This document shows positions 38 through 38,343 of a DNA stretch of 64,000 nucleotides, one piece after another (position 1 is the stretch's first letter; every line of letters begins with the position of its first letter). The stretch lies in IMG/VR virus record IMGVR_UViG_3300021961_000027. One strand, 5' to 3'. Source of the DNA: an uncultured virus (IMG/VR IMGVR_UViG_3300021961_000027). Taxonomy: Duplodnaviria > Heunggongvirae > Uroviricota > Caudoviricetes. The notes beneath the pieces are model-generated. The model did no database searches, was not told where the DNA came from, and was given only the letters and a program-made list of their open reading frames with translations. The position numbers were made by a program, and so were the translations under genes.

Positions 38-268
38 GTGATTTTCAAATATTACGGCGTTGACTGGATTATATTTATTTTAGTTGTAACACAATTATGG
101 CTACTTGGAAACAAAAAGAGACAAGCATTTTTATTCGGCATGGCTGGGAATAGTTGTGGAATTCTTCTTGGTTTCCTTGTTGAGAGCATAGCATGTATAA
201 TTATGAATTCTGTATTTGTGATTATGCATGTAAATGCATATCGGAAGTGGAAGCCTAAAGATGTTTAG
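38..268 (+). CDS. small membrane protein, PnuC/nicotinamide-riboside transporter-like half domain
   Basis: Three hydrophobic segments, D-W near the N-terminus, C-terminal YRKWK as in phage PnuC-like proteins. Confidence 0.5.
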   Translation: MIFKYYGVDWIIFILVVTQLWLLGNKKRQAFLFGMAGNSCGILLGFLVESIACIIMNSVFVIMHVNAYRKWKPKDV

Positions 269-491
269 AAACTATACATGTAGAAGCTCATATTCGGTTT
301 TTAATAGAAACCAAAGATGGGGAGCCGCATTTAGCACCCCAAATGAACATTGCAGCTTAGCTTTTGGCAGTAGGCGCAATAGAGTAAGTAGAAACTTAGG
401 ACAAGCTTGGAGCGAAGTATTTAATGCATGTGAATCAACAGTATGGACTGAATTCTTTTTCCACCAATTAAACACCTCGGAGTGGTGGTAA
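261..491 (+). CDS. Ser/Trp/Arg-rich microprotein (array family)
   Basis: ATG 261 overlaps the upstream stop; MFRNYTCRSS...NTSEWW; TAATG-coupled to next ORF. Confidence 0.65.
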   Translation: MFRNYTCRSSYSVFNRNQRWGAAFSTPNEHCSLAFGSRRNRVSRNLGQAWSEVFNACESTVWTEFFFHQLNTSEWW

Positions 492-673
492 TGAAATTGT
501 TTAATCCAATAGGTTCTTGCTTCGGCAATTTACAGGCTAGTGGCAACCTGTATTGTTTCTTCCACCACTTGATGCCTTATGCATATTTGTGGGGTAGTCG
601 TGCAGCCCGTAGTAGAAATGTTAGATATCAAGATTCAAAACCTTTTGGGTTTTTTCAAGCAGATTGGGTGTAA
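491..673 (+). CDS. Ser/Phe/Trp-rich microprotein (array family)
   Basis: TAATG overlap at 489-493; MKLFNPIGSCFG...FQADWV. Confidence 0.6.
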   Translation: MKLFNPIGSCFGNLQASGNLYCFFHHLMPYAYLWGSRAARSRNVRYQDSKPFGFFQADWV

Positions 674-980: not shown

Positions 981-1529
981 ATGATAAAAAAATTCTGGAA
1001 GTGGCTAGCAGATAAAGGTTTTGCCAACTGGTTTAAAGGCAGCAAAATTGTAGACGAAAATGGCGAACCAAAAATGGTTTATCATGGCACTCCAATCTCT
1101 AGCAAAATAAACAAATTCAAAATATCAACCGGGGGCACTATATCTTTTTCCTTCAATCCAACTTTTGCAGGATCATTTGGCAGAAAAGGCGGCAGTCAAA
1201 GTAATATTGTTGTGGCATATTTAAAAGTAATAAATCCCTTTGATTATCGTAAGCAAGAGCATAAAGAAATTTTACAAAAGTACTGGCAAAATCTTAAAAT
1301 GCCTTACATTAAAACCATGATGGAAGAACTTAATAAAGGATTATTTGCCGTCATTGCAGATCCAAAATTCTTGAAATCAAATGGATTTGATGGCTGCTAT
1401 ACAACAGAAGGCAACACTCTTAACATTGAAGTTTTAGATCCCAACCAAATATGGATAGTTGACCAAAAAGAATTTGACAGCGCCGAGTGGAAATCAAAAA
1501 TCGGCAACGAAATGCCATTTTATAAATAA
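981..1529 (+). CDS. ADP-ribosyltransferase-like protein (ART-PolyVal type)
   Basis: WFKGSKIVDENGEPKMVYHGT, SF...FA, YLKVINP, GFDG motifs; TAAATA at 969-974. Confidence 0.7.
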   Translation: MIKKFWKWLADKGFANWFKGSKIVDENGEPKMVYHGTPISSKINKFKISTGGTISFSFNPTFAGSFGRKGGSQSNIVVAYLKVINPFDYRKQEHKEILQKYWQNLKMPYIKTMMEELNKGLFAVIADPKFLKSNGFDGCYTTEGNTLNIEVLDPNQIWIVDQKEFDSAEWKSKIGNEMPFYK

Positions 1530-1581
1530 GCATTCGCCCTATAATGAGGGCGGTTAATTTAATTTTTTAAGGAGCTAAGAC

Positions 1582-1888: not shown

Positions 1889-2016
1889 CTTGGCGTATTA
1901 AAAACAAAGAAAAGTTAAGAGAGCAAAGGAAAATATGGGAAGCAAATAATCAAGACAAAATTAAACAGTATAGAGAGAAAAGGAAAATAAAAAATGCTCT
2001 TTCTGAACGGTCATGA
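1846..2016 (+). CDS. basic helical protein resembling the N-terminal arm of HNH endonucleases
   Basis: MPYKSRVRREEARLAWRIKNKEKLREQ...NQDKIKQYR resembles the N-terminus of 16173..17135. Confidence 0.5.
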   Translation: MPYKSRVRREEARLAWRIKNKEKLREQRKIWEANNQDKIKQYREKRKIKNALSERS

Positions 2017-2188
2017 CTGTGCCATTTTCAGTTTAATATATTCTGGAAGTCATAATTGGAAAAATAATTGGTGCTTATGTGATACAAGGGCTATAACAGC
2101 AAGAGCAGCCTTGTCTTTTTCACATCATTGGTCTAAAAATATCACTTGCTCTCAGAGGAATGATTCCTTTTTGTGGGGGATAGACTAA
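1994..2188 (+). CDS. Ser/Trp/Cys-rich microprotein (array family)
   Basis: 64 aa, composition like the family, ends SFLWGID. Confidence 0.55.
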   Translation: MLFLNGHDCAIFSLIYSGSHNWKNNWCLCDTRAITARAALSFSHHWSKNITCSQRNDSFLWGID

Positions 2189-2222
2189 AGACTTTGATTG
2201 TGGCATTGTTCTTGGAGCAAAA

Positions 2223-2489
2223 ATGGAATTTTCAAACGAATATTCGAAATTGGTAATTACACCAAGATATGCTTCTAAGGTTGATTGCGTTAATTGCAAC
2301 GGTTCTGGAATTGTCGATAATCCAGATGCAATGGGATTGATGGACAAAAACATGAAATGTTTCTACTGTTGGGGGGATGGCAAAAGAGAAGTTGTGCCAG
2401 AAATTCCAATTCCCCCAGAGATGTGCCACAAGTTTTTGGAAGATTTGGAAAAGTGGTTTGAAAATTATAAGCGGTTGGAGCAAAAGTAA
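2223..2489 (+). CDS. DnaJ-type zinc-finger protein
   Basis: CVNCNGSG and CFYCWGDG (CxxCxGxG) motifs; GGAG RBS. Confidence 0.7.
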   Translation: MEFSNEYSKLVITPRYASKVDCVNCNGSGIVDNPDAMGLMDKNMKCFYCWGDGKREVVPEIPIPPEMCHKFLEDLEKWFENYKRLEQK

Positions 2490-2629
2490 TGATAAATAGT
2501 TTTTGTTGGTCTAGGTCTGGTTCTGGATCTATTTTCGAGTCTAGGCATAAGTCTGGGTCTTGGTTTGGGGATTGGTCTATTTCTCTGCTTCAGATCGGGC
2601 AGAAAATAATTTCTAGGTCTTGGAAATAG
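2489..2629 (+). CDS. Ser-alternating microprotein (array family), 46 aa
   Basis: TAATG-coupled; MINSFCWSRSGSGSIFESRHKSGSWFGDWSIS...SRSWK; TCT-NNN periodicity. Confidence 0.7.
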   Translation: MINSFCWSRSGSGSIFESRHKSGSWFGDWSISLLQIGQKIISRSWK

Positions 2630-2640
2630 GGGATAAACTA

Positions 2641-2829
2641 ATGTTCTACAAATTCGGTTCATCCAGACCATTCGGTTATCAAATTTGGTCACATCATGGA
2701 AGGCGTGGAGAGATATATGGACAAAATTTTAACAAAGGCTATGACAAGAATTTTTTCTTATTGAACAAAACTTCTGAATTTACAAATCGATGGGCTCATT
2801 ACAGTAAGTGCTGGGGCTGGAAAGATTAG
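2641..2829 (+). CDS. microprotein (array family)
   Basis: GGGG RBS; ends YSKCWGWKD. Confidence 0.65.
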   Translation: MFYKFGSSRPFGYQIWSHHGRRGEIYGQNFNKGYDKNFFLLNKTSEFTNRWAHYSKCWGWKD

Positions 2830-2903
2830 CTATTCAATTAGCCATTCATTTTTCTCAAATTTCGCTGGTTTTCAAGGCAAAAAGCTATTCAAGGAGCTAT
2901 TCA

Positions 2904-3143
2904 ATGAACGGCGAAATCGGTTTGGCAATATTGTTTTTCTTTTATTTGTCTGTGTCCGTAAATTTATGGCTTTTGTGGAACATGTTTACTGGTCACAGGG
3001 AAGTACATCAAAAAGTTGATGGTCAGATATTATATGTCCAAAATCAATTACTACGGAGAATTGATGCATTAGAAGAAAGATTGCATCAATTCACAGAACC
3101 CCAAGAAGGATTAGTGGAAACTGAAAAGGAGAAAGCACAATGA
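2904..3143 (+). CDS. membrane-anchored coiled-coil protein
   Basis: AAGGAG RBS, N-terminal TM helix then coiled coil. Confidence 0.7.
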   Translation: MNGEIGLAILFFFYLSVSVNLWLLWNMFTGHREVHQKVDGQILYVQNQLLRRIDALEERLHQFTEPQEGLVETEKEKAQ

Positions 3144-3310
3144 ATCTCAAACAATGCAGTCGTTCCAGAGTGGGCTGCTGGAATTTTAGCGTTTGGCGGT
3201 CTTCAAATTGGGCTAGAGCTTGGACACACAATTTGGAAGAAAACTATACGCAGTTTGGATGCTTTAGACACGCTTCTACAAGGTCTTTCAACTGGAATAG
3301 GGATATATGA
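3140..3310 (+). CDS. microprotein (array family), 56 aa
   Basis: ATGA overlap; MNLKQCSRSRVGCWNFSVWRSSNW...RSFNWNRDI. Confidence 0.7.
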   Translation: MNLKQCSRSRVGCWNFSVWRSSNWARAWTHNLEENYTQFGCFRHASTRSFNWNRDI

Positions 3311-3498
3311 TCCGCCGAATTCATAGCTGGAACTATTGTGAAACATTTTGGGTAGAGAGTTTCATTGGTTCCAAAATATTCCCATTTAATTTTCCGACAA
3401 GTTGGATTGGAAGGCAAGAGTGGGATTATAGCCAAGTATTCGGATTTATACAGAGTGCTATCAGTAACAGAAGTGAGTGTTGGAAAGGCAAAATTTAA
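3307..3498 (+). CDS. microprotein (array family)
   Basis: ATGA overlap; ends RSECWKGKI. Confidence 0.7.
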   Translation: MIRRIHSWNYCETFWVESFIGSKIFPFNFPTSWIGRQEWDYSQVFGFIQSAISNRSECWKGKI

Positions 3499-3662
3499 TG
3501 TTCATCCCATCGTATAAAACAACAGATTTAGCACATTGCTGGTCGGATAGCAGAGCTAGGTCTTTTTTCCAAAGAAAGTTTTATTCTAGTTCCTTTACAA
3601 GAAATATCTACTATCATGTGGATTATGAGGTTTTCTTTTGGAGCAAAGGGATACGCATATGA
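3498..3662 (+). CDS. microprotein (array family)
   Basis: TAATG overlap; HCWSDSRARS...FFWSKGIRI. Confidence 0.7.
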   Translation: MFIPSYKTTDLAHCWSDSRARSFFQRKFYSSSFTRNIYYHVDYEVFFWSKGIRI

Positions 3663-3862
3663 CTTTTCCCAAACCACAAGCAGTTTTTTATAGAGATTGC
3701 AGTCCTTTTGACTTGCATCGCTATAACATTACAGGATTGTTTGGACTATCTCTTTACGGGCAATATGTTCGCAAAAGCTTTTGGATCAGTATTGCTCATG
3801 GATTGGGTTTTGGCGGTAGGGAACATTGTTTTACTTTCAACAGATTCAATGTGAGGCGGTGA
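3659..3862 (+). CDS. microprotein (array family)
   Basis: ATGA overlap; MTFPKPQ...RFNVRR. Confidence 0.65.
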   Translation: MTFPKPQAVFYRDCSPFDLHRYNITGLFGLSLYGQYVRKSFWISIAHGLGFGGREHCFTFNRFNVRR

Positions 3863-4044
3863 TGACTCCAGTCCCAACCGTTGACCGAATGGACTTGAGA
3901 GTTTTTGGTACATTAGTGCCATTTTCCAGATTTCGATTCAATTGCTTTGTAAGTTATATTAACGGACAAGGAAAATCAAGGCATTGGCATAATCGCTCAA
4001 GAGACTTGCATTTCGTTTCAAGTTGTTGGGGGTTTAAAGGATGA
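3862..4044 (+). CDS. microprotein (array family)
   Basis: TGATG overlap; ends VSSCWGFKG. Confidence 0.7.
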   Translation: MTPVPTVDRMDLRVFGTLVPFSRFRFNCFVSYINGQGKSRHWHNRSRDLHFVSSCWGFKG

Positions 4045-4229
4045 TCCTTAAAACCTCATGTTGCGATACAAGCGGTTGTTTTCATATAAGACTTCCAAAG
4101 TCGTATAATTTTAGCAGCGGTATTGAATCATTTGTTTTTACTTTTCAGTTTATGAAATGTTGCTGCTGGAATAGAAACAAGGCAGGCACATTTTTTCATT
4201 CAACGGCTTTTGGGGAACAAGAATGGTAA
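4041..4229 (+). CDS. microprotein (array family)
   Basis: ATGA overlap; Cys/Ser/Phe-rich, KCCCWNR. Confidence 0.7.
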   Translation: MILKTSCCDTSGCFHIRLPKSYNFSSGIESFVFTFQFMKCCCWNRNKAGTFFHSTAFGEQEW

Positions 4230-4417
4230 TCAACACACTTCATAAAAACCCATCCAGCCTTGTGTGGCATACATTTCTTCCGTATTCAAAATTTTTCATG
4301 TTAGGCTATAGCAGACATTACAGCTTATCCAAAATATGGGGTAAATATCCTATTAGCTCTTCGTTATTATTTTTTTCTAATGACCACCGTAGCAGATGTT
4401 GGAATCATAACATATGA
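4223..4417 (+). CDS. microprotein (array family)
   Basis: ATGGTAA overlap; ends RSRCWNHNI. Confidence 0.7.
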   Translation: MVINTLHKNPSSLVWHTFLPYSKFFMLGYSRHYSLSKIWGKYPISSSLLFFSNDHRSRCWNHNI

Positions 4418-4566
4418 GAACCTTCCGCAAACAAACTGCCCCCAGACATATTTTAATATGGAAGCATTTCAGAAACAATTCTGATATGTTTAGAGGCATT
4501 TCCTACAGTATAACTTTTACAGTTGGATTAGCTTTTTCATTCAATTTTGTTGAGAGAAGGTTCTAA
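4414..4566 (+). CDS. microprotein (array family), 50 aa
   Basis: ATGA overlap; MRTFRKQTAPRHILIWKHFR...VERRF. Confidence 0.65.
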   Translation: MRTFRKQTAPRHILIWKHFRNNSDMFRGISYSITFTVGLAFSFNFVERRF

Positions 4567-4739
4567 TGTTCCGTTTTCCCTCACCTAGCACTATAGAACT
4601 CTGGCGTTTTAGCAATTACAGAAGCAGGAATTGGAGACAGAATAGAACTATATACATACAATGGACGCTTAGAGGTTGGCGAAACGATGCTTTTGAATCA
4701 AGCCAAACTTGCTCTTATAATTTTGAGGGAAGCATATGA
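4566..4739 (+). CDS. microprotein (array family), 57 aa
   Basis: TAATG overlap; MFRFPSPSTIELWRFSNYRSRNW...; ATGA-coupled to 4736. Confidence 0.7.
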   Translation: MFRFPSPSTIELWRFSNYRSRNWRQNRTIYIQWTLRGWRNDAFESSQTCSYNFEGSI

Positions 4740-5113
4740 AAACATTTAAAAAATTTTTGGAAAATAAAGAATTAAATTTGCCAGAATATTTGTATCATGC
4801 AACCTATAAACCTTATTTAGACAGCATAATGAAGCATGGGCTTGGTGGCTATCAACAGAAAAAAAATTATGAAGACTCAGAATCTGGTAAAGTTTATTTA
4901 GCCTTAGACCCTGAAGTAGCTAGAGCTTATGCAGAAACATCAGATGAAGTTCCAGAAGACTGGCTTGATAATATTGTAGTTTTGACTATTGATACCGGAA
5001 AGCTTGATAAAGAACTAATTGGCTCAGACCGAAATGTTCAAGATAATAATGGCGATACACTTGAGTATAAAGGTATTATTTCACCAAATGCAATAATTGG
5101 GAGTAGTATATGA
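4736..5113 (+). CDS. ADP-ribosyltransferase-fold protein (Tpt1/KptA-like)
   Basis: LYHAT...SIMKHGL, VYLA.DPEVA..YA, Y.G.I.P..I; N-terminal MKTFKKFLE. Confidence 0.65.
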   Translation: MKTFKKFLENKELNLPEYLYHATYKPYLDSIMKHGLGGYQQKKNYEDSESGKVYLALDPEVARAYAETSDEVPEDWLDNIVVLTIDTGKLDKELIGSDRNVQDNNGDTLEYKGIISPNAIIGSSI

Positions 5114-5544
5114 AAACATTTAAAAAATTTGTAGAGTATAAAGATAATTTATTTATCGAAGCTAAAAAGATGAATACTGATGAGATAGTCCGTAAAATAA
5201 AATCTCTAAATTTACCTTTCGGTGGAGGTTATTGTGGAAATACAGCGATAGAAATCAATCATAAAGTATTTGGTGGCAAAGGAAAATACATCGTTGCTGT
5301 TAATGAATTTCTTTTTGATTTTGAAAATGAGTTTGTTGGACATGTCGCAGTAAAATACAACAATCAACTATGGGATACAGACGGTCTGATTAGTATGGAT
5401 CATCTGGAATCATGGGGACAAGTCGATCCAACAGATTCAAATTATACAGGATATTTTGGTTGGACAGAACAAGATGCATACAAGGTAAAAATCATGGAAA
5501 TGACTGAAGACCAAATTAGAAAATATTTACCTTGTGATAATTAG
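5110..5544 (+). CDS. putative papain/transglutaminase-fold enzyme
   Basis: GGYC...HVAVKY...WDTDG gives a Cys-His-Asp order; N-terminal MKTFKKFVE. Confidence 0.5.
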   Translation: MKTFKKFVEYKDNLFIEAKKMNTDEIVRKIKSLNLPFGGGYCGNTAIEINHKVFGGKGKYIVAVNEFLFDFENEFVGHVAVKYNNQLWDTDGLISMDHLESWGQVDPTDSNYTGYFGWTEQDAYKVKIMEMTEDQIRKYLPCDN

Positions 5545-5558
5545 CAAGTGAGAGGATT

Positions 5559-5675
5559 ATGAAAACAAAACACAAATTGATTATTGCAGCATTAATTGTG
5601 GCTGGAACTTTAGCTTTCTTGTATTGGAAGTACAGCAACGATTTCTTTTCAGCCTTTTATACAATTGGGATTTAA
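5559..5675 (+). CDS. small membrane protein
   Basis: GAGG RBS, MKTKHKLIIAALIVAGTLAFLYW. Confidence 0.6.
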   Translation: MKTKHKLIIAALIVAGTLAFLYWKYSNDFFSAFYTIGI

Positions 5676-5676
5676 T

Positions 5677-5850
5677 ATGAACGAACATCATTTTAAAGTC
5701 CGATTTATTTACAAAATTGGTAAGGTTAAAGAAGAGCGATGGGGGACTGCTACAGTAATTGGTGGCACTCTTGAAGATGCCATAAAAGATGTAAAGGATG
5801 GGTATAAAAGGTTGGGGCAGAGGGTATTGGAAATCATTAACTATAGTTAA
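5677..5850 (+). CDS. hypothetical protein
   Basis: Open frame starting 1 nt after the upstream stop. Confidence 0.6.
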   Translation: MNEHHFKVRFIYKIGKVKEERWGTATVIGGTLEDAIKDVKDGYKRLGQRVLEIINYS

Positions 5851-5851
5851 A

Positions 5852-6670
5852 CTATTGCTGCTGTGTTAGATTAGGTTGTGGCTGTGCGTTTTGTTGCCCA
5901 GTTGGAACAGCCCAAGATACTCCCTTCAACCTTGGGAAGTGTCCCGCACCTAAAAATAATATACCACCATTAGCTTTAGCAAAATTAATAATTTGAATTT
6001 TTCTTTCTGTTTCTGCGGCATCCCCAAGTTTACTCAATGCATTTCCTTTTTGTTCCCACATATAATCTTCTGCTTGTAGAAGCCACTGTTTAAATTCGGC
6101 AGCTTTATTTTTAATACGAAACTTCTGCTGTTCAAATTGTGGAAATACTTGCCTTACAACATCAAATATTTGTTTTATTTCTGGTTCGCTTAGTTTTATA
6201 TTTACACCAGCCCTTGCGAAAGTGCCAGCACCATTTGCCAATGCACTTCTTAAGGCATCGCCTATCGTATTTGAATTTTTGAAATCTATCTTTGGCGAGT
6301 TTTTAGGCCAATTAGCTGCCACACTAGAAAACGTTGGTACACCAGCGTAAAATCCCGTCATCGTAACTCTATCATCGTAAGAACCGTTGTTTTTTGGGTT
6401 TGCAACACCAAGAACATTTTCACAATATGTTTTTTCAGGGCCATTGCCACCTCCTCTTTCTTCGCCTATGCCTTCATACCAATATCCATATTTTTCACAG
6501 ATATTTTTGGCATATTGTTTTGCCATGTCATCTGGTGGAGGTGTAATTTTTGTACTGCCAGCTTCTGCTCCATGTGCAGAAGGGATTATAACAGCATTGC
6601 CGACATAAGCAAAACCGTTTCCGGCTTGCTCAAAAAGATGCAACCACTCTTTAAAACTTATAGTTAACAT
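5852..6670 (-). CDS. hypothetical protein, possible TraB/GumN-like C-terminus
   Basis: 272 aa; ILFLGAGHF; N-terminal SFKEWL; TAAATA upstream. Confidence 0.6.
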   Translation of the reverse strand: MLTISFKEWLHLFEQAGNGFAYVGNAVIIPSAHGAEAGSTKITPPPDDMAKQYAKNICEKYGYWYEGIGEERGGGNGPEKTYCENVLGVANPKNNGSYDDRVTMTGFYAGVPTFSSVAANWPKNSPKIDFKNSNTIGDALRSALANGAGTFARAGVNIKLSEPEIKQIFDVVRQVFPQFEQQKFRIKNKAAEFKQWLLQAEDYMWEQKGNALSKLGDAAETERKIQIINFAKANGGILFLGAGHFPRLKGVSWAVPTGQQNAQPQPNLTQQQ

Positions 6671-6715: not shown

Positions 6716-6895
6716 ATGCACATTTTCAATTTCCACAAATATGTCCTGAGTGACTTGAATGACTATCATTTTTCTGGTAATTTTGGCGACGAAGCATACA
6801 GCAATAGTTTCATCACAGTTTTAAATCCATTCTCAAGACCAACAGCGAGCAGGGTTTTTGGGCAAGAAGCAAACTCAATTATTGCGGTGTCTTGA
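6716..6895 (+). CDS. microprotein (array family), 59 aa
   Basis: MHIFNFHKY...SRVFGQEANSIIAVS; TGATG-coupled to next. Confidence 0.6.
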   Translation: MHIFNFHKYVLSDLNDYHFSGNFGDEAYSNSFITVLNPFSRPTASRVFGQEANSIIAVS

Positions 6896-7074
6896 TGCGA
6901 TTAAACATGCCTTTCCAAAAAAGCAGAGCATACCTTTTTTCTAGAAATGAGCAAATATCTTTCCACAATGCTCGTTGGGCTAGCAATCTGACTATTAATT
7001 TGGCTAGATCAGAATGTTTTTTTACTGGTAGTCAATCATCTTGGGGACACAGTGCAATTTTTGTGAGGTGGTGA
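6895..7074 (+). CDS. microprotein (array family)
   Basis: TGATG overlap; RSECFFTGSQSSWGHS. Confidence 0.65.
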   Translation: MRLNMPFQKSRAYLFSRNEQISFHNARWASNLTINLARSECFFTGSQSSWGHSAIFVRW

Positions 7075-7075
7075 A

Positions 7076-7222
7076 ATGGAAAATCGCATCAAAGCTTTCA
7101 GTCACTGGTGTGGCATCAGTAGTTTCATAAGAATGTATCCTAAATCGTGTTTTATAACTATTACATACTACTCAGGGGCATTTGGACAAGACAAGATTAA
7201 AAGTGAAATTTGGGGCGATTAA
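7076..7222 (+). CDS. microprotein (array family), 48 aa
   Basis: GAGGTG RBS; MENRIKAFSHWCGISS...KSEIWGD. Confidence 0.65.
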   Translation: MENRIKAFSHWCGISSFIRMYPKSCFITITYYSGAFGQDKIKSEIWGD

Positions 7223-8638: not shown

Positions 8639-8836
8639 ATGAGTTCAATAATATTCAAAAACACAAGCTGGTCATCAATATATCTTTTCAATTTAGGATT
8701 TATGTATAGTTATGCTCACATAGGCGATATGGATTATTCTTTTAATTGGAAGAATCATTGGCAAACTTCAAATCAGCGTATTACAGTATTTTCTTTAAAT
8801 GAAAGCAGGGGCCGTTGCTGGGGGAAAAATGTTTGA
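8639..8836 (+). CDS. microprotein (array family)
   Basis: GGAGG RBS; ends RGRCWGKNV. Confidence 0.7.
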   Translation: MSSIIFKNTSWSSIYLFNLGFMYSYAHIGDMDYSFNWKNHWQTSNQRITVFSLNESRGRCWGKNV

Positions 8837-8981
8837 ATATGATCACAAATCATATTGGCTTGCTTACGAAATGTCAAGTACTTTTAGGATAGGATTCTAC
8901 ACAAGTAATAATTTGCGATGTTTTTGGAGCATTTCCTTTGGAAGGTTTAGTTCAAACTGGAGAAATAAGTTTGATTCATAA
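8829..8981 (+). CDS. microprotein (array family)
   Basis: 8-nt overlap; RCFWSISFGRFSSNWRNKFDS. Confidence 0.65.
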   Translation: MFEYDHKSYWLAYEMSSTFRIGFYTSNNLRCFWSISFGRFSSNWRNKFDS

Positions 8982-9147
8982 AATTAATTGCAGATGTACT
9001 AACCCCTGCCGTTCATCATGGATGAGTGGCAGGGGTGCAAGCCCATTGTTTGTTGGGCAAAGATATTTTGCTCCTCTTTTCCACATTCATGTCTATTGGT
9101 GTAGTAGCTTCTGTGGAAGTCAGGGTAGCAATTATCACAAATTTTAA
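8971..9147 (+). CDS. microprotein (array family)
   Basis: TTG start after GGAG; CRCTNPCRSSW...YWCSSFCGS. Confidence 0.55.
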   Translation: MIHKINCRCTNPCRSSWMSGRGASPLFVGQRYFAPLFHIHVYWCSSFCGSQGSNYHKF

Positions 9148-9787: not shown

Positions 9788-9991
9788 TTGAATCTGCAGG
9801 TGGCCAGCGCATCCGTAAATTTAATCTTCGGCAGAAGTACAGAAAGTTATCAATTTTTGAATTCTTATTGCTGTTGTGAAAGTTTCTTTTTTCATAGAAT
9901 CGGGAGTTTACCATTTAAAAGTTCATATGCCTACAACCATGCGTGGATATCAAACTATATTTGGTCAAGCAATTGGGAGAATCACGGATGA
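9788..9991 (+). CDS. microprotein (array family)
   Basis: AGGAGG RBS + TTG; promoter TTGCAA-N16-TAAAAT at 9735-9762; ends WSSNWENHG. Confidence 0.7.
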   Translation: MNLQVASASVNLIFGRSTESYQFLNSYCCCESFFFHRIGSLPFKSSYAYNHAWISNYIWSSNWENHG

Positions 9992-10254
9992 AAAGAATGT
10001 TTGTTTTTAATTTCTGGGATTCTGTTTTATTTCACTTCCCTTTTTGGGATGAATCTCAAAGTTGCCTGTTTTTAAATGATATAACACATTCTTTTTTTGG
10101 AAAAGATGTTGAAGATAAAAATCATATAAATGAGTCTAAACCCAATACTCATAGTAGTATTTTTGATGGTAATTCATCTGAATTTGAATCAATTGATTTG
10201 TCTTCAAATTTTAATTCTGATTCAGAGTCCCGCACAAATTCTGACTGTTTCTAA
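9988..10254 (+). CDS. Ser/Phe/Asp-rich small protein (array-related)
   Basis: ATGA overlap; Ser-alternating C-terminus NSDSESRTNSDCF. Confidence 0.6.
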   Translation: MKRMFVFNFWDSVLFHFPFWDESQSCLFLNDITHSFFGKDVEDKNHINESKPNTHSSIFDGNSSEFESIDLSSNFNSDSESRTNSDCF

Positions 10255-12997: not shown

Positions 12998-13354
12998 TCA
13001 ACGGTCAAAACTTACTTTACCCATCTTTACGGTTCCCTTAATATTTGTATCGTCTAATCCTTGTGCTCTTGCAGCAGCTTTGATTGCTTGTATTTCAGCA
13101 TCAGATCTGAGCATTCTTTTGCCAAGAGCAGACTTATATTTGGGTTCATTCGCATTCTTTTGAATGAACTCTTGAACTGCTTGATTATAATCAAATCCAG
13201 AAGAAGGCATATTTTTTTGTGCCATCTTTGATGCTGCTCCGCCTACTCCTAGTGCTGCTGCTGCCCCTAGTGCAGAACCAATAGCCCAATTTTTCCATCC
13301 TTCAACTGTTAGTTCTGGATGTTTTTCTAAAACAAATTCAGAAAATAATTTCAT
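12998..13354 (-). CDS. hypothetical protein, putative virion-internal
   Basis: MKLFSEFVLE...EGWKNWAIGSALGAAAALG. Confidence 0.7.
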   Translation of the reverse strand: MKLFSEFVLEKHPELTVEGWKNWAIGSALGAAAALGVGGAASKMAQKNMPSSGFDYNQAVQEFIQKNANEPKYKSALGKRMLRSDAEIQAIKAAARAQGLDDTNIKGTVKMGKVSFDR

Positions 13355-13880: not shown

Positions 13881-14546
13881 ATGATATTAAATTTTAAACA
13901 GTTTTTTATTGAATCATTTCGAGATGATGAAAGATTTAGAGATAGACCAGAAACTCAAAACCAAGATTATAACAAAAGAATTGCTGCAGGTCTAAAAGCT
14001 GAAAAGAAAATTATTAAAGAGCTTATGAAATGCCCAGGATTGAAAAGCAAAGGATTTACTGTAGAAGAAAGTGCTCCCGGAGTTGACATAAGCGAAGGAA
14101 TTGATGCTTGGCTAATAAAAGACGGAAATCGTGTCGGAGTACAAGTAAAGCACAGAGAGTCTAGCGGAGATGACATAGCTTTAGAAATGATTAGAAGTTT
14201 AGATTTAAAAACAGGCAAAACATTAGTCGTTGGCAGAGATAACAAAGAAGCAGCAAGAGGCGCTAAATATTTTGCTGTAGCAAACAGATCAAAAACCATT
14301 GTTGAAATAGTAAGTGCAGATGATGCTAGAGATTATGCAAATCAAGTACTTAGAGAAGCTTTAAGAGATAGAGACTTCATGACTCCATCTGCTAGAGGAT
14401 CTAAAACTTATAGATCTCACTTTGAAGGACATCGAGTTGAGATTAAAATGACAACAGATAGAGACATGGTGACACCAAAAATTATGGCATATATTCCTTT
14501 AGATTTGTGTCAAACCTTTACAAGTTGCCCCTTGAACATTCGCTAG
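13881..14546 (+). CDS. PD-(D/E)XK nuclease-like protein
   Basis: G..AE, D...GIDAW, VQVKHR; N-terminal LNFKQFFIE. Confidence 0.6.
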   Translation: MILNFKQFFIESFRDDERFRDRPETQNQDYNKRIAAGLKAEKKIIKELMKCPGLKSKGFTVEESAPGVDISEGIDAWLIKDGNRVGVQVKHRESSGDDIALEMIRSLDLKTGKTLVVGRDNKEAARGAKYFAVANRSKTIVEIVSADDARDYANQVLREALRDRDFMTPSARGSKTYRSHFEGHRVEIKMTTDRDMVTPKIMAYIPLDLCQTFTSCPLNIR

Positions 14547-14591: not shown

Positions 14592-14876
14592 ATGATTTTT
14601 ATAAATTCAACTGGCATTGGTTCTTGGCACTTTCAAGACAAAAGACACAGTTGGCTTATATCTGTTATAAATCAAATTCATAGAAGAACTTTAGAGCAAA
14701 GTGAAGAATTACTAGCATCTACTAATTCAACAAATTTTAAATTAGCAGGGGGCGGAACAAGCGACCACTTCAACAACAATTTAAGAGTTGCATCATTTTG
14801 GTCATTTGATTGTAATAACGAAAATCAAAAATGCTTCTCTGATCATTGGGGGTCTTCATGGAATGTAAAGAATTAA
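14592..14876 (+). CDS. Ser/Trp/Asn-rich small protein (array family, own transcription unit)
   Basis: TAGTTT-N16-TACAAT promoter at 14544-14571, GGAGG RBS, ends WGSSWNVKN. Confidence 0.7.
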   Translation: MIFINSTGIGSWHFQDKRHSWLISVINQIHRRTLEQSEELLASTNSTNFKLAGGGTSDHFNNNLRVASFWSFDCNNENQKCFSDHWGSSWNVKN

Positions 14877-30700: not shown

Positions 30701-32812
30701 CTATAGTTTTAATAAAGTTTGCATCATTTCTTTTAAATTTGTTTCCATAATTTTACATGCTGAATCATTATCGCCATATGATATAATAATATTATTTTCT
30801 TTTAATATCATGCTAGATGGAAAGTTGCATATTATAAAGCCTTCTTTTCTGTAGTGTTTTTCGGCAGCAGACTCCGCTGGCAGGAACGCTCTGTTGGCAC
30901 ACATAGTGACTTTAAATGGAGGTTTGGCTTCGAATAAATAACACCCATTATCGTAATAATGTGTTGAATTTATCAACTGAGAAGTATGGAATGTGCCTAA
31001 AAAATTACCATCGGGCAGCCTGACAGGATTTGTGCTGCCTCTTAATTGACTCGGAACAAACCATAAGCTGTTCCATGCGTTTTCAAAAGCAAGATAAACT
31101 GCTTCGTCAGCATATCCTTTGAGAATATAAATTCTATGAGGATTAATATCAGAGATTAAATAAATAACATTTTCATGCACAAAAGGTATCCAATTTTTCT
31201 GTCTGCCTTCCAAGCTTTTTGGACTTATACGAAATCTTTTTCCATCAACTAAAACTCCATCTCTTTTATCCATAATAATTTTCCCAACCATGTATTCTTT
31301 GGACATTTCCTCTTCAAAAGTAGAGTATGTCATCATCAACTTGTTGTCTGGAGTCCATAGCAATCGAGGATCGGCTGCTCTTTCATTTGTAATTATTTTT
31401 TCTGAATTTTTTATTATATTGTAATCCTGGTCCAAAATACATGCAACCAAGTGGTCTTCGTTTTTACGATAAACACAAACAAACTGATCAAATAAATCTA
31501 TAATTGCAGGATTAAATGCCCCCATATCTTTGGTTTCAATTGTTTTGTGAGTTGCTGATATTTTACAAATAAATTCTTTTCTAGGTCTAAGTTCTATAGT
31601 TGCATGGTTTACTTTTTTAAGATACTCTGTCATAGAGTTTATTCTATCTTCCCTATTCATTCCAACAAAATGAAGCATAAAATCTCCATTCCTATAGGGC
31701 TTGGGGTACTTAAAAGCAGGAGCATTTGTTCCATCGGTGAACATCATATTCATGGGAATATAAGAATTAAAACTAGATTGATCTAGAACTTTTGTTCTAG
31801 ACAAAAGTTTGCCATCAGTTGCAAGATTTGCAGAAAAAGAAATTTGGTCTGACCAGCCACTTTGTGTTTTACCAGAATTATCAACCCAAGATCTTGAAAG
31901 AAAATTTATTATTCGTGGAGTATTTCTTACTAAGAATTGACCATTGTTTAGTGAATTAATGTCAAAAGTTACAAATAAATCATAATTTTCATCTATGAAA
32001 TCTTCTAATCTTATTTCTTGATTCATAATCAGAGAATCTATATCGTTATAGAATACCCAATCGTAAAAAGGCAAACAGTCTAATACAGCTAAAAACTTAT
32101 TATATGCAACATGTTTATAAGGTGATTTATTTTCCATATTGTAAAAAATGCAATCATAGTTATGTTTCTTACAGTATTGACTTTTATTATTATGGGTGAT
32201 ATTATACAAGTATTCATAGTTTGAATCATATACTGACACTAAAGCTATTTTATATTTTTTGGGCTTAATTATATACCAAGTTGAACATGTTCCAACTGTA
32301 AAATCTAACTGATTATCTACAGAGAATTTGTTTACAGCAGATTTAGTTTCGTATTTACCTTTAATTTTTGGATCATGCAAATCGCTGTTGCCAAAGTTGC
32401 TCCCGCATAAAAGGCCTCCTTGTTTAATTTTTGGCCACCAAGACTTTATATCAGACAAAATATTTTCAAATGTATAATGAGCATTTAGATAAATGAAATC
32501 AAAAGTATCATCTTCAAAATCATCATATACTTTTTCGCTAAAATTTTTAATAATTTCAACTTTATTTTTATAAGTTTCTAAGTTATTCAAAGTTTTATAA
32601 AAGTTATTCTTATGACTTTCGTTTGTTTTGCTCTGAATATCACATTCGTCTTCTTTTTGTAGATCCCAAGGATCTATGACGATTAATTTGCTGCCATTCC
32701 ATTCAGTACGGAGTAATTTTGCGAAAGATCCATCATCCGCACCAATGACTGCGCCTTTTCCATAAAAATTGTGCGTGTGCAACCAACGAGGAATATTATT
32801 TTTAGTAAACAT
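30701..32812 (-). CDS. fusion: class I methyltransferase + GT34-like glycosyltransferase + GH130-like glycosidase propeller
   Basis: IDPW/FDFIYL/WWPKIKQGG; YCKKHNY, DIDSLIMN, LNNGQF; RQKNWIPF, ISYGDND. Confidence 0.75.
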   Translation of the reverse strand: MFTKNNIPRWLHTHNFYGKGAVIGADDGSFAKLLRTEWNGSKLIVIDPWDLQKEDECDIQSKTNESHKNNFYKTLNNLETYKNKVEIIKNFSEKVYDDFEDDTFDFIYLNAHYTFENILSDIKSWWPKIKQGGLLCGSNFGNSDLHDPKIKGKYETKSAVNKFSVDNQLDFTVGTCSTWYIIKPKKYKIALVSVYDSNYEYLYNITHNNKSQYCKKHNYDCIFYNMENKSPYKHVAYNKFLAVLDCLPFYDWVFYNDIDSLIMNQEIRLEDFIDENYDLFVTFDINSLNNGQFLVRNTPRIINFLSRSWVDNSGKTQSGWSDQISFSANLATDGKLLSRTKVLDQSSFNSYIPMNMMFTDGTNAPAFKYPKPYRNGDFMLHFVGMNREDRINSMTEYLKKVNHATIELRPRKEFICKISATHKTIETKDMGAFNPAIIDLFDQFVCVYRKNEDHLVACILDQDYNIIKNSEKIITNERAADPRLLWTPDNKLMMTYSTFEEEMSKEYMVGKIIMDKRDGVLVDGKRFRISPKSLEGRQKNWIPFVHENVIYLISDINPHRIYILKGYADEAVYLAFENAWNSLWFVPSQLRGSTNPVRLPDGNFLGTFHTSQLINSTHYYDNGCYLFEAKPPFKVTMCANRAFLPAESAAEKHYRKEGFIICNFPSSMILKENNIIISYGDNDSACKIMETNLKEMMQTLLKL

Positions 32813-32841
32813 ATTTGTAAATGAGAAATTTTTCCACAAAA

Positions 32842-37286: not shown

Positions 37287-38336
37287 TTACCATCTCCACG
37301 CATTAGATTTTCTCAATTCTTCCCGTTGTTTCTTCAAATCAAAAGTCGGAACCCCTAACCATAAGTGCCATTTATCTCGATGTTCAGGAGCTAAGATATC
37401 AAACTGCCTGTAATGTAGTGTTTCTCTGCGAATAATTTCAATATGTTTTTGGGTGATTGGATGCTTGTTAGCGACTTTTTCATTCAACTGTTCACCGCAA
37501 ACTAAAACTCCATAATTTTCTACTGCAATAATATTTTCTATTTTCTTTCTTTTAATCTCCGTCTCAGGAACAGTATTTTCTTGTCCATCTGCAACAGTAG
37601 TTGGAACAGTACTATAACACTGATGATCGAGAATATAAAATATTCCTTGTCTATCTTGAACAAACTGTCTTCCATGCATCTTGAGACGATTGCCGAAATC
37701 GCAGTCTTCTAGACTTTTGCAACCGTCCATTCTTTCGTTATAACCATTAAGCTCTAAAGCATCTTCTAGTTTGAAACTAGTCCCGGCAAAAGCCCAATTT
37801 CCATTATAATGAGGATAAACATCTCCATGCATATGATTGAATCTATGGTCATTTATATAAAAATCACCAGTGATTGGAAATACAGGAACACCATCTTTAA
37901 CTTCTATACTTCTCATCCTATGATGCATGCCTAACATAAATTTGCCAGATAGATAATGATTCCAATATCTTTCCAGAAAATCATCAGGGAAAAATTCACC
38001 ATCATCACAACTTATTACTAATTCACCATCAGCATATATTATTCCAGTATTTTTAGCGGCAGAGATATATGTATGTCCTTTATCAAACCAATACCTATGT
38101 TCATGGTGCAAAGGAACATGCTTTACAATGAATGGCAAACCTGGCAAATAAGTTTTAAATCTATGTTTATTATCTTCATAAAAAGTATCAATATAAATAA
38201 ATTCAAATTGTTTTATAGTTTGTCTTGATAAGTTCTTTAGTAATGCATAAAAATAACTTGGTATTCCTTGATTCTCTAAAAAAGAATCTGCGGAAGCAGT
38301 ATGTATCATCAAAGAAATTTTATGAACGTAATGCAT
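37287..38336 (-). CDS. GT2-like glycosyltransferase
   Basis: AAKNTG, SCDD, LNGYNE, EDCDFG. Confidence 0.8.
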   Translation of the reverse strand: MHYVHKISLMIHTASADSFLENQGIPSYFYALLKNLSRQTIKQFEFIYIDTFYEDNKHRFKTYLPGLPFIVKHVPLHHEHRYWFDKGHTYISAAKNTGIIYADGELVISCDDGEFFPDDFLERYWNHYLSGKFMLGMHHRMRSIEVKDGVPVFPITGDFYINDHRFNHMHGDVYPHYNGNWAFAGTSFKLEDALELNGYNERMDGCKSLEDCDFGNRLKMHGRQFVQDRQGIFYILDHQCYSTVPTTVADGQENTVPETEIKRKKIENIIAVENYGVLVCGEQLNEKVANKHPITQKHIEIIRRETLHYRQFDILAPEHRDKWHLWLGVPTFDLKKQREELRKSNAWRW

Positions 38337-38343
38337 ATGTTGC

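What the first reader, a model, noticed from the sequence alone, without database searches (positions are those of the whole stretch)
3140..4739. Nine consecutive, translationally coupled micro-ORFs in 1.6 kb
Seen: 3140-3310, 3307-3498, 3498-3662, 3659-3862, 3862-4044, 4041-4229, 4223-4417, 4414-4566 and 4566-4739 are each 50-67 aa. Every junction is a start/stop overlap, and the chain is also coupled to the genes on both sides. Three members are below the ORF-track cut-off. An unbroken chain like this is unlikely by chance in AT-rich DNA and looks like cassette-wise expansion without visible direct repeats at the junctions.
Basis: seen in the sequence. Interest (0 to 1): 0.7.

Follow-up and report, generated by a model that had tools for sequence, protein, structure and literature searches.

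The report
Nine coupled micro-genes in a phage
Nine tiny back-to-back genes in an uncultivated large phage are real, conserved protein-coding genes joined stop-to-start, an ordinary kind of phage small-gene operon except that their proteins have a strikingly odd, tryptophan- and phenylalanine-rich make-up.

Summary
Window 3140-4739 carries nine ATG ORFs of 50-67 aa. Every junction is an ATGA, TAATG/TGATG or ATGGTAA stop/start overlap, and the chain is coupled to the genes on both sides. In 5000 dinucleotide shuffles the longest such chain was 2.

They are genes, not a broken long gene. Related contigs keep each ORF intact, variation sits at third codon positions, and dN/dS is 0.04-0.22, like control genes. 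Dual coding, stop-codon recoding, an antisense gene, tRNA and Rfam RNAs were tested and rejected.

Relatives gain, lose and move single cassettes at the gene junctions: 25 of 43 homology break points lie within 10 nt of a junction, against 5.3 expected. The nine units are not paralogues, so this is cassette exchange, not expansion by duplication.

The unexpected part is the proteins. They are basic, have 4.6x the usual W and about 2x F, R and C, are poor in A, D, E, K and L, and resemble out-of-frame translation of normal genes (r=0.75). Their synonymous codon choice is native. No family, fold or distant homologue was found.

Closest known kind: phage accessory small-gene operons (lambda ninR chain, T4 hyperplastic regions). 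Function is inferred, not shown.

The parts
1994..2188 (+). Upstream micro-type gene (64 aa) of the same compositional class
   Evidence: Intact in 8 of 8 distinct relatives' sequences. Variable columns by codon position 15/7/44 and dN/dS 0.04.
2489..2629 (+). Micro-type ORF (46 aa), TAATG-coupled to the 88-aa CxxC gene at 2223-2489
   Evidence: No counterpart was found in the relatives, so it is less certain as a gene.
2641..2829 (+). Micro-type gene (62 aa) ending in CWGWKD
   Evidence: The 62-aa ORF and its stop are kept in 5 of 5 distinct sequences. Variable columns 21/23/48 over the whole 267-nt block 2641-2907.
2904..3143 (+). Ordinary-composition 79-aa gene (hydrophobic N-terminus, then a charged helical-looking tail). 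It is a mobile cassette, ATGA-coupled on both sides.
   Evidence: Present only in the window and L017 at this seam, absent in L011 and L013. Homologues sit after ORF4 in L002, L016, L019 and L007.
3140..3310 (+). Micro-gene 1 (56 aa, pI 10.1)
   Evidence: dN/dS 0.13 from 1 pair.
3307..3498 (+). Micro-gene 2 (63 aa)
   Evidence: 8 of 8 distinct orthologues intact. Variable columns 14/14/48 and dN/dS 0.04. A 44%-identical paralogue lies elsewhere in L013.
3498..3662 (+). Micro-gene 3 (54 aa)
   Evidence: 10 distinct orthologues, all open over the 54 codons. Variable columns 17/14/41 and dN/dS 0.07.
3659..3862 (+). Micro-gene 4 (67 aa)
   Evidence: 6 distinct orthologues in the loci plus 7 database clusters. 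Variable columns 16/16/40 and dN/dS 0.11.
3862..4044 (+). Micro-gene 5 (60 aa)
   Evidence: Family of 7 ORFs in the loci, those visible in the cut output 60 aa. 60-aa cluster members P0010 and P0012.
4041..4229 (+). Micro-gene 6 (62 aa), a cassette that is variably present
   Evidence: Present in the window, L004, L005, L007 and L009. Absent in the L002 type and L020. dN/dS 0.09 from 1 pair.
4223..4417 (+). Micro-gene 7 (64 aa)
   Evidence: dN/dS 0.12 from 1 pair. The N-terminus is remodelled in the L002 type.
4414..4566 (+). Micro-gene 8 (50 aa, pI 11.9)
   Evidence: 4 of 4 distinct orthologues intact. dN/dS 0.22.
4566..4739 (+). Micro-gene 9 (57 aa)
   Evidence: 4 of 5 extracted orthologues intact. 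The fifth (L014) is intact when called as an ORF. Variable columns 15/15/36.
4736..5113 (+). Ordinary 125-aa gene starting MKTFKKFLE, a variable cassette
   Evidence: Absent from L004, L002 and L020, where micro-gene 9 abuts the next gene. Weak hits to RNA 2'-phosphotransferase models, far below their cut-offs.
5110..5544 (+). Ordinary 144-aa gene with the same leader, a variable cassette
   Evidence: 48-nt leader repeat at 4723-4770 and 5097-5144. L014 carries only this gene, with a hybrid start.
5559..5675 (+). 38-aa hydrophobic gene that in relatives follows micro-gene 9 directly at an ATGAAAACA seam

Best explanation
Window 3140-4739 is a polycistronic run of nine different, genuine micro-protein genes. 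It lies in the + strand accessory arm (about 0.2-10 kb of the window) of an uncultivated large phage.

Shown:
- Each ORF is kept intact in related phage contigs and evolves under strong purifying selection in its own frame.
- Every start codon overlaps the preceding stop codon.
- The order of the units is conserved among relatives.
- Whole cassettes, both micro-genes and ordinary genes, are inserted, lost or moved at the stop/start seams.

Inferred:
- Ribosomes that finish one gene restart on the next (termination-reinitiation, helped by the Shine-Dalgarno-like tract inside the end of the upstream gene). One transcript would then yield all the proteins.
- A cassette that lands at a seam would be expressed without needing signals of its own.
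- Exchange would occur by recombination in the short similar sequences around the ribosome site, the ATG and the first codons, or in shared gene tails.

Inferred more weakly:
- The products are small, basic and rich in aromatic residues and Arg/Ser. I take them to be independent early host-takeover or counter-defence effectors that each bind a host protein or nucleic acid, as the small accessory genes of other phages do.

Their amino-acid make-up is unlike the phage's other proteins and resembles out-of-frame translation, while their synonymous codon choice is native. This suggests lineage-specific origin from alternative frames or non-coding DNA.
For: Reality of the ORFs and their overlaps. 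Shuffle test: observed chain 9; longest chain in 5000 shuffles was 2.

Phage context: ART-PolyVal, GP88, ClpX-like, helicase, HNH, sigma factor and ParB-like hits. The best isolate match to the helicase has only 25% identity.

Relatives: L002 and L003 and 17 metagenome loci. The unit map shows the order ORF1 to ORF9 conserved.

Selection:
- Variable columns at codon positions 1/2/3: ORF2 14/14/48, ORF3 17/14/41, ORF4 16/16/40, ORF9 15/15/36, m1994 15/7/44. Control genes: 17/14/40 and 13/9/37.
- Nei-Gojobori dN/dS in the ORF frame is 0.04-0.22 for the 8 units with usable pairs, against 0.07-0.09 for controls. The other two frames give 0.43-4.1.

Seams:
- 25 of 43 distinct homology break points lie within 10 nt of a gene junction. 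Random positions give a mean of 5.3, and 0 of 10000 randomisations reach 25.
- Junction sequences are shown.
- The 2904-3143 cassette family sits at different seams in different relatives.
- An 81-nt repeat flanks an inserted 190-aa gene in L002.
- Across loci, 79 of 122 distinct micro-gene 3' junctions have a following conserved ORF. Of these, 35 are ATGA-type overlaps, 22 are 1-nt overlaps and 5 are 7-8-nt overlaps.

No + strand terminator-like site lies inside 3140-4739.

Composition:
- W 4.7 vs 1.0%, F 11.4 vs 5.5%, R 9.4 vs 4.3%, C 3.4 vs 1.5%, with low A, D, E, K and L.
- pI 8.3-11.9 and aromaticity 0.17-0.26.
- Correlation with the -1 frame of normal genes is r=0.75, against 0.26 in-frame.
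- Synonymous codon choice is close to that of normal genes.
Against: - No expression data.
- No function evidence. There were no Pfam, PHROG, NCBIfam or PADLOC matches for any of the nine and no ESM Atlas hit.
- An HMM profile search of 1.84 billion representatives found only 2 relatives plus 1 spurious repeat protein.
- AlphaFold2 models were unusable, with pLDDT 41.7 and 46.8.
- Predicted accessibility of the ribosome sites at the junctions is no different from internal control positions: 0.40 vs 0.43, p=0.69. Nothing in RNA structure enforces coupling.
- The promoter scan is at noise level, 51 sites against 44.2 +/- 7.6 in shuffles, so 'early' timing is a guess from context.
- Break points near gene ends could partly reflect gene-wise differences in divergence, not recombination sites.
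- dN/dS for ORF1, ORF6 and ORF7 rests on one pair each. ORF5 and ORF9 gave no usable pair.
Confidence: 0.75

Rival explanations
1. The micro-genes were born from alternative reading frames or non-coding DNA (out-of-frame or de novo gene birth) within this phage lineage and were then fixed. This concerns origin and is compatible with the best explanation.
For: - Their amino-acid composition correlates r=0.75 with the -1 frame translation of the phage's ordinary genes. It correlates 0.26 with in-frame translation and 0.54 with random translation of the region's base composition.
- Codon position 1 is T-rich and G-poor and position 2 is G-rich, like an ordinary gene shifted by one base.
- Synonymous codon choice is native.
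- The families are confined to a narrow clade.
- No confident fold was predicted.
- Literature context, abstracts only: young ORFans have random-like composition (PMC2853687), and out-of-frame remodelling creates gene families (PMC8788219).
Against: - No parental gene was found. tblastx of the chain in all frames against the window and 11 loci gave only syntenic orthologues.
- The +1 frame pieces match no Pfam family and no convincing PHROG; the best hit has E=0.013.
- Composition could equally reflect function, for example strand-rich, aromatic, basic binders.
- Synonymous sites are saturated (dS about 1 or more), so the genes are not very young.
Confidence: 0.3
2. The products are basic proteins packaged with the DNA (internal or DNA-condensing proteins), not cytoplasmic effectors.
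For: - Eight of the nine have pI of 8.8 or more, and net charge runs from +1.6 to +6.7.
- The neighbourhood holds genes whose N-termini look like a shared leader and an ADP-ribosyltransferase-domain protein. This recalls the injected proteins of T-even phages (PMC3012670, passages read).
Against: - The micro-proteins themselves lack the shared MKTFKKF-type leader.
- No structural genes are recognisable nearby.
- More than twenty different tiny species would be an unusual virion cargo.
Confidence: 0.1
3. The ORFs are translated only to keep ribosomes on the message (relay or spacer ORFs), and the peptides have no function.
For: The overlaps are uniform and no fold or family was found.
Against: dN/dS of 0.04-0.22 and near-invariant peptide stretches across relatives with saturated synonymous sites show selection on the amino-acid sequence, not merely on an open frame.
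Confidence: 0.03
4. The region is one long gene broken by frameshifts (a pseudogene or assembly error), or it is read with a reassigned stop codon.
For: - Two database proteins run through the stops: 144 aa with Q at a TAG position, and 138 aa with W at a TGA position.
- The frame steps by -1 at every junction.
Against: - The run-through proteins come from contigs of 578-1296 nt and look like gene-caller choices.
- Independent assemblies keep the same nine ORFs and the same stops.
- Whole genes are inserted between units in relatives.
- The 50 long ORFs of the window are open under table 11 and end in TAA (30), TAG (11) and TGA (9).
- Reading through any chain stop adds 0-63 codons, and at most 24 for eight of the nine.
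- No single-stop reassignment opens a long frame.
Confidence: 0.01
5. Dual coding: a second protein is encoded in the +1 frame, which looks more protein-like to the eye, or on the antisense strand.
For: - The +1 frame has long open runs (up to 63 codons) and ordinary-looking composition.
- Some +1-frame ORFs recur in relatives.
Against: - Stops in the +1 frame number 20. Synonymous-codon shuffles that keep the micro-proteins give 20.9 +/- 2.4.
- dN/dS in that frame is 1.4-4.1.
- The antisense frame that shares third positions carries 1-5 stops in every unit.
Confidence: 0.02

Closest known systems
Lambda ninR region, the 'chain of interlinked genes' (Kroger & Hobom 1982, Gene 20:25; seen only as reference 18 in PMC7166090, whose passages on ninR I read)
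   Same: A run of small phage accessory genes on one strand whose stops and starts interlock. They are expressed from one transcript, are largely dispensable, and are mosaic among relatives. This characterisation of nin is partly recalled; the paper passages confirm its location and early expression.
   Different: The genes here are smaller (50-67 aa) and all are ORFans of a narrow uncultivated clade. They have a shared anomalous amino-acid composition, and the host and timing are unknown. No sequence similarity to nin genes was tested or seen.
Hyperplastic regions of T4-type phages with PeSL regulatory cassettes (Arbiol et al. 2010, PMC2839356; abstract read)
   Same: Clusters of small non-essential ORFan genes whose content differs between close relatives by insertion, deletion and replacement of gene-sized modules at recurrent boundary sequences.
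   Different: In T4-type phages the recombining boundaries are promoter plus stem-loop cassettes. Here no repeated promoter/stem-loop element was found. The seams are the stop/start overlaps themselves, with short similarity around the ribosome site, the start codon or gene tails.
Translationally coupled overlapping gene pairs (termination-reinitiation at AUGA or UAAUG). General knowledge, recalled.
   Same: The overlap geometry is identical, with a Shine-Dalgarno-like tract inside the upstream gene.
   Different: The run is unusually long: at least 12 consecutive overlapping junctions from 2904 to 5110 (10 at the chain starts 3140-4736, plus 2904 and 5110). Coupling itself is untested here.
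Integron cassette arrays (works-like comparison only)
   Same: Promoterless gene-sized cassettes are stacked in one orientation behind common expression signals, and content varies between relatives.
   Different: There are no attC-like repeats. No integrase appeared among the ORFs scanned, which were not all ORFs of the window. The cassettes join by stop/start overlap. This is not a member of that family.
Diverse internal proteins of T-even phages sharing only a capsid targeting sequence (PMC3012670; passages read)
   Same: This applies to the ordinary cassettes flanking the chain, not to the micro-genes. Unrelated proteins share a short N-terminal leader (MKTFKKF...), and the leader DNA is a recombination point.
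   Different: The leader's role here is untested. The T4 motif itself is recalled, not compared by any search.

Membership tests
Translationally coupled polycistron (termination-reinitiation) | The stop codon of the upstream gene overlaps or abuts the start codon of the downstream gene on the same strand | tested here: met
   All 10 junctions at the starts 3140-4736 are ATGA, TAATG/TGATG or ATGGTAA. In relatives 62 of 79 scorable junctions overlap.
Translationally coupled polycistron (termination-reinitiation) | A ribosome-binding tract lies within the upstream coding sequence | tested here: met
   Purine-rich GGAG/GAGG/AAGG-type tracts lie roughly 4-17 nt upstream of most starts. They were read by eye and not scored against a control.
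Translationally coupled polycistron (termination-reinitiation) | Downstream translation depends on upstream translation | not testable with these tools
   This needs reporter or ribosome-profiling experiments. Predicted RNA accessibility at the junctions equals that at control positions, so there is no structural hint either way.
Phage accessory small-gene operon (ninR-like chain / hyperplastic region) | Located in a phage genome | tested here: met
   Pfam and PHROG hits to phage-typical proteins across the window. Relatives sit in IMG/VR viral contigs.
Phage accessory small-gene operon (ninR-like chain / hyperplastic region) | Small genes without known function whose content varies among close relatives | tested here: met
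   No family hits. Cassette presence and absence are mapped.
T4-type hyperplastic region with PeSL cassettes | Repeated promoter plus stem-loop elements at module boundaries | tested here: not met
   No repeat families at the junctions. Promoter-like and terminator-like counts equal the shuffles, and there is no + strand terminator-like site in 3140-4739.
Frameshifted pseudogene / assembly artefact | Relatives carry one uninterrupted long ORF across the region | tested here: not met
   All relatives keep separate ORFs and some carry other genes between them.
Stop-codon-reassigned phage | One stop codon is absent as a terminator and frequent in-frame in conserved genes | tested here: not met
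   TAA (30), TAG (11) and TGA (9) all terminate the 50 long ORFs, which are open under table 11.
Overlapping (dual-coding) genes | A second frame is kept open beyond expectation and is under purifying selection | tested here: not met
   +1 frame stops number 20, against 20.9 +/- 2.4 expected. dN/dS there is above 1. The antisense frame has stops in every unit.
tRNA array or known structured RNA | A match to tRNA or Rfam models | tested here: not met
   ARAGORN found 0 genes. Rfam found 0 matches at gathering score.
Integron cassette array | attC-type imperfect inverted repeats at cassette ends and an integrase | tested here: not met
   No recurrent repeat at the seams. No integrase domain appeared among the proteins scanned, but not every ORF of the window was scanned.

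The most novel reading that the evidence does not exclude
This phage lineage carries a burst of twenty or more micro-proteins (nine of them in this chain) that were created from alternative reading frames or non-coding DNA. They have since been held under strong purifying selection. They are strung together in a recombinase-free, integron-like expression chain, in which the stop/start overlap is both the translation relay and the plug-in seam for new cassettes. If so, the locus would be a natural nursery in which new phage genes are born, tested and shuffled.
Probability: 0.2. Interest if true: 0.75.

Novelty: new member of a known kind. Interest (0 to 1): 0.42.

Why it matters
Small phage genes are routinely missed or dismissed, especially when their composition looks like out-of-frame noise. 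Here comparative data show that nine such ORFs, and about a dozen more nearby, are real and strongly constrained. They add a set of ORFan micro-protein families for host-takeover or counter-defence screens.

The locus also gives a clean natural example of gene cassettes being exchanged exactly at translational-coupling seams.

Native codon choice combined with amino-acid composition unlike the phage's other proteins makes it a candidate case for studying how phages originate new genes. The chain architecture itself is an established phage pattern.

Tried and rejected
- **tRNA array or structured RNA.** I suspected this from the G+T-rich strand and the roughly 180-nt unit size. ARAGORN found 0 genes and Rfam found 0 matches.
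- **Stop-codon recoding or one long gene.** Six-frame reading with each stop type marked shows no frame opened by any single reassignment. Stop usage in long ORFs is normal.
- **Codon-usage scoring.** Scored against the window's long genes, the region gives about 0 in every frame. I first read this as non-coding. It is explained by amino-acid composition, because synonymous choice is native.
- **The +1 frame that looks protein-like by eye.** No excess openness, no Pfam hit and no convincing PHROG hit, and dN/dS above 1.
- **Antisense coding.** Stops occur in every unit.
- **Paralogy among the nine.** None detected.
- **Whole-genome search.** No genome is held for this window.
- **GenBank phage DNA search of 2200-5600.** No match.
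- **Loci search with the flanking ordinary genes.** Only one distant locus, L001, matching a 29-residue leader, and none for the other gene. L001 has no micro-type genes.
- **ESM Atlas.** No usable hit.
- **Structure prediction of ORF2 and ORF4 from 9- and 13-row alignments.** pLDDT 41.7 and 46.8, so no fold search was run.
- **HMM profile of ORF2 against 1.84 billion representatives.** Two true relatives, plus one eukaryote-like repeat protein that I judge spurious.
- **RNA structure at junctions.** No difference from controls.
- **Promoter and terminator scan.** Noise level.
- **Earlier notes of this scan on this genome or sequence.** None.
Full report
**1. The observation**

The + strand of window 3140-4739 carries nine ATG-initiated ORFs of 56, 63, 54, 67, 60, 62, 64, 50 and 57 aa.
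- The junction sequence is ATGA at 3140, 3307, 3659, 4041, 4414 and 4736. It is TAATG or TGATG at 3498, 3862 and 4566, and ATGGTAA at 4223.
- Each gene therefore lies in the -1 frame relative to its predecessor. That follows from the overlap type and carries no extra information.
- The chain is joined in the same way to a 79-aa gene upstream (2904-3143) and to a 125-aa gene downstream (4736-5113), which is ATGA-coupled to 5110-5544.
- Purine-rich Shine-Dalgarno-like tracts precede most starts (read by eye).
- There are no direct or tandem repeats at the nine internal junctions.
- In 5000 dinucleotide-preserving shuffles of the 1.6 kb, the longest chain of overlapping ATG ORFs of 50 aa or more was 0 (1451 shuffles), 1 (3513) or 2 (36), against 9 observed.

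**2. First doubts**

The predicted peptides look like noise.
- They are rich in W, C, F, R and S. A codon-usage log-likelihood trained on the window's long genes is about 0 in all six frames across 2500-4700, while the flanking genes score +0.3 to +0.5.
- I therefore tested non-coding and miscoding readings. ARAGORN finds no tRNA and Rfam nothing.
- Marking each stop type in all six frames shows no frame that a single reassignment would open.
- The 50 ORFs of 120 aa or more are open under table 11 and end in TAA (30), TAG (11) and TGA (9).

**3. Relatives**

- No genome is held for the window and GenBank phages have no similar DNA.
- An exact look-up showed that four of the nine products are in the protein collection. 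It also showed longer variants (144 and 138 aa) on very short contigs. These read through a TAG as Q or a TGA as W, and I take them to be gene-caller choices. They nevertheless revealed that some relatives lack whole cassettes.
- Searching with ORF2 gave an IMG/VR locus (L002, identical to L003) and 17 metagenome loci. L018 is identical to the window over its 1390 nt.
- A unit-by-unit blastn map shows the order m1994, m2641, ORF1 to ORF9, a 38-aa hydrophobic gene and a 57-aa gene conserved across relatives at 68-94% identity, with gene-sized differences between them.

**4. They are genes**

For each unit I aligned the distinct orthologous sequences.
- The ORFs keep their ATG and stay open in the relatives: ORF2 in 8 of 8, ORF8 in 4 of 4, m1994 in 8 of 8 (one with a TTG start and one with the stop a codon earlier). 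ORF3 is open in 10 of 10, with two starting one codon later. ORF4 is open in 6 of 6, with two ending one codon later. ORF9 is intact in 4 of 5 as extracted, and the fifth is intact when called as an ORF.
- Variable columns fall on codon positions 1/2/3 as 14/14/48 (ORF2), 17/14/41 (ORF3), 16/16/40 (ORF4), 6/12/18 (ORF8), 15/15/36 (ORF9) and 15/7/44 (m1994). Two ordinary neighbouring genes give 17/14/40 and 13/9/37.
- Nei-Gojobori dN/dS in the ORF frame is 0.04 (m1994), 0.13 (ORF1, one pair), 0.04 (ORF2), 0.07 (ORF3), 0.11 (ORF4), 0.09 (ORF6, one pair), 0.12 (ORF7, one pair) and 0.22 (ORF8). Controls give 0.09 and 0.07. The two other sense frames give 0.43-4.1. ORF5 and ORF9 yielded no usable pair in that script.
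- The antisense frame that shares third positions has 1-5 stops in every unit.

The nine ORFs are therefore protein-coding and under purifying selection on the peptide.

**5. Not dual coding**

The frame one base downstream looked protein-like to me and has open runs of up to 63 codons.
- Its 20 stops equal the 20.9 +/- 2.4 expected when synonymous codons are shuffled with the micro-proteins held fixed.
- Its pieces hit no Pfam family and no convincing PHROG.
- Its dN/dS exceeds 1.
- Its appearance is a by-product of the micro-genes' odd codon-position make-up.

**6. Cassettes and seams**

Relatives differ by whole units.
- ORF6 is present in the window, L004, L005, L007 and L009, and absent in the L002 type and L020.
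- An extra micro-gene sits between ORF3 and ORF4 in L002, L004, L019 and L020.
- L014 goes from ORF3 through one other micro-gene to ORF9.
- The ordinary genes 4736-5113 and 5110-5544 are absent from L004, L002 and L020. In L004 and L002, ORF9 overlaps the 38-aa gene at ATGAAAACA.
- The 79-aa gene 2904-3143 occupies this seam only in the window and L017. Its homologues sit after ORF4 in L002, L016, L019 and L007, so the same cassette family occurs at different seams.
- In L002 an inserted 190-aa gene is flanked by an 81-nt repeat that is the tail of the preceding micro-gene.
- In the window, the two ordinary genes share a 48-nt repeat covering the ribosome site and the first codons. L014 has a hybrid of the two starts.

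Two counts bear on the seams.
- Of 43 distinct homology break points in 1990-5850, 25 lie within 10 nt of a gene junction and 36 within 25 nt. Random positions give 5.3 within 10 nt, and none of 10000 randomisations reaches 25.
- Of 122 distinct 3' junctions of conserved micro-type ORFs in all loci, 79 have a conserved following ORF. Of these, 35 are ATGA-type overlaps, 22 are one-base overlaps and 5 are overlaps of 7-8 nt. The other 43 include locus ends and singletons.

Two limits apply.
- The nine units are not paralogues of each other, although L013 carries diverged second copies of ORF2 (44% identity) and ORF4.
- No promoter/stem-loop or other repeated element marks the seams.

**7. The proteins**

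Compared with 9817 residues of ordinary proteins of the window, the 533 residues of the chain differ as follows:

| Residue | Chain | Ordinary proteins |
|---|---|---|
| W | 4.7% | 1.0% |
| F | 11.4% | 5.5% |
| R | 9.4% | 4.3% |
| C | 3.4% | 1.5% |
| S | 11.8% | 6.4% |
| A, D, E, K, L | about half the ordinary level | |

- pI is 8.3-11.9 and aromaticity 0.17-0.26.
- Codon position 1 is G-poor and T-rich (0.17 and 0.33, against 0.30 and 0.21 in ordinary genes). Position 2 is G-rich (0.29 against 0.16).
- The composition correlates r=0.75 with the -1 frame translation of ordinary genes, 0.26 with their true frame and 0.54 with random translation.
- Synonymous codon choice matches ordinary genes for most amino acids. 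Only Ile and Gly differ at p<0.05. The oddity lies in the amino acids, not in foreign codon usage.
- A simple composition index is bimodal among the window's 62 small ORFs. Most of the 23 high-index ones (18) sit on the + strand between 234 and 10254.
- No family matches any of the nine, and the ESM Atlas gives nothing.
- ORF2 has 2 clusters and ORF4 has 7 in the 5.8-billion-protein collection.
- An ORF2 profile finds 2 relatives in 1.84 billion representatives, plus a spurious repeat protein.
- AlphaFold2 gives pLDDT 41.7 and 46.8.

**8. Mechanism**

- Shown: separate conserved genes, overlapping stops and starts, conserved order, and cassette exchange at the seams.
- Inferred: one transcript, with ribosomes re-initiating at each overlap. 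No internal + strand terminator-like site was found, and RNA accessibility at the junctions is no different from controls.
- Inferred more weakly: the products are early host-directed effectors. This rests on analogy with small accessory genes of other phages and on their basic, aromatic character.
- Expression could not be examined.

**9. Comparison with what is known**

- The architecture matches the long-known chains of interlocked small accessory genes in phages. One example is the lambda ninR 'chain of interlinked genes' (Kroger & Hobom 1982, seen as a reference in PMC7166090). Another is the hyperplastic regions of T4-type phages (PMC2839356, abstract), whose PeSL boundary elements are absent here.
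- Earlier notes of this scan on other genomes reached the same 'ordinary nin-like operon' verdict for similar chains. These are leads, not evidence.
- The composition finding has context in work on ORFan composition bias (PMC2853687, abstract) and on out-of-frame remodelled genes (PMC8788219, abstract). No parent gene was found here.

**10. Verdict**

- This is a new member of a known kind.
- Interest is moderate. It rests mainly on the anomalous yet strongly conserved micro-proteins and on the clean seam-wise modularity.

Noticed in passing
window 4736-5113, 5110-5544, 39928-40668 (-), 12998-13354 (-), 13881-14546, 5852-6670 (-), 56922-57374; L001 6001-6696; L014 6922-7335: Otherwise unrelated ordinary proteins begin with a similar leader (MKTFKKFLE, MKTFKKFVE, MKTFMQFLTE, MKLFSEFVLE and the like). 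7 of 136 ATG ORFs of 60 aa or more match a loose pattern. The same leader heads a 231-aa gene in a distant viral contig. It recalls the capsid targeting sequence shared by the diverse injected internal proteins of T-even phages (concept from PMC3012670; the T4 motif itself is recalled). The leader DNA is a recombination point.
   Followed up: partly
window 981-1529 and 4736-5113: A 182-aa protein has an ART-PolyVal ADP-ribosyltransferase domain (E=1.2e-14). The 125-aa cassette gene gives weak, sub-threshold hits to RNA 2'-phosphotransferase models. Both may be injected or early enzymes acting on host targets.
   Followed up: no
window 234-673, 1994-2188, 2489-2829, 6716-7222, 8639-9147, 9788-10254, 14592-14876: About a dozen further small + strand ORFs share the same W/F/R/S/C-rich composition and often the same overlap style. 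Several have orthologues in the relatives (fam14, fam18, fam22, fam44-50). Only m1994 and m2641 were tested for selection.
   Followed up: partly
window 2223-2489: An 88-aa ordinary gene has two CxxC pairs and gives weak DnaJ-central-domain and anti-TRAP-like hits below the cut-offs. It is present only in the window among the loci compared.
   Followed up: no
L002 5476-5556 and 6127-6207: An 81-nt direct repeat (89% identity) brackets an inserted 190-aa gene. Each copy is the 3' tail of a micro-gene and ends in the same ribosome site plus ATGA. It looks like a footprint of cassette insertion by homologous exchange in gene tails.
   Followed up: partly
proteins P0002, P0005, P0009, P0011 (contigs of 578-1296 nt): Database gene calls on very short contigs read a TAG as Q or a TGA as W and so fuse neighbouring micro-genes into 138-144-aa products. 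The odd composition of this region probably misleads automatic choice of genetic code.
   Followed up: partly
window 1534-1553: A GC-rich hairpin followed by a T-rich run lies just after the ADP-ribosyltransferase-domain gene and is scored on both strands. It may end one transcription unit before the small-gene arm.
   Followed up: no
window 30701-32839 (-), 37287-39435 (-), 42677-43738 (-), 49581-50813 (-): The window also encodes a 712-aa fusion with methyltransferase, glycosyltransferase and GH130-like domains, further glycosyltransferase and GH130-like proteins, a GMP reductase/IMPDH-family enzyme and a ClpX-like ATPase. This is an unusual metabolic and glycan-modifying load for a phage.
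   Followed up: no
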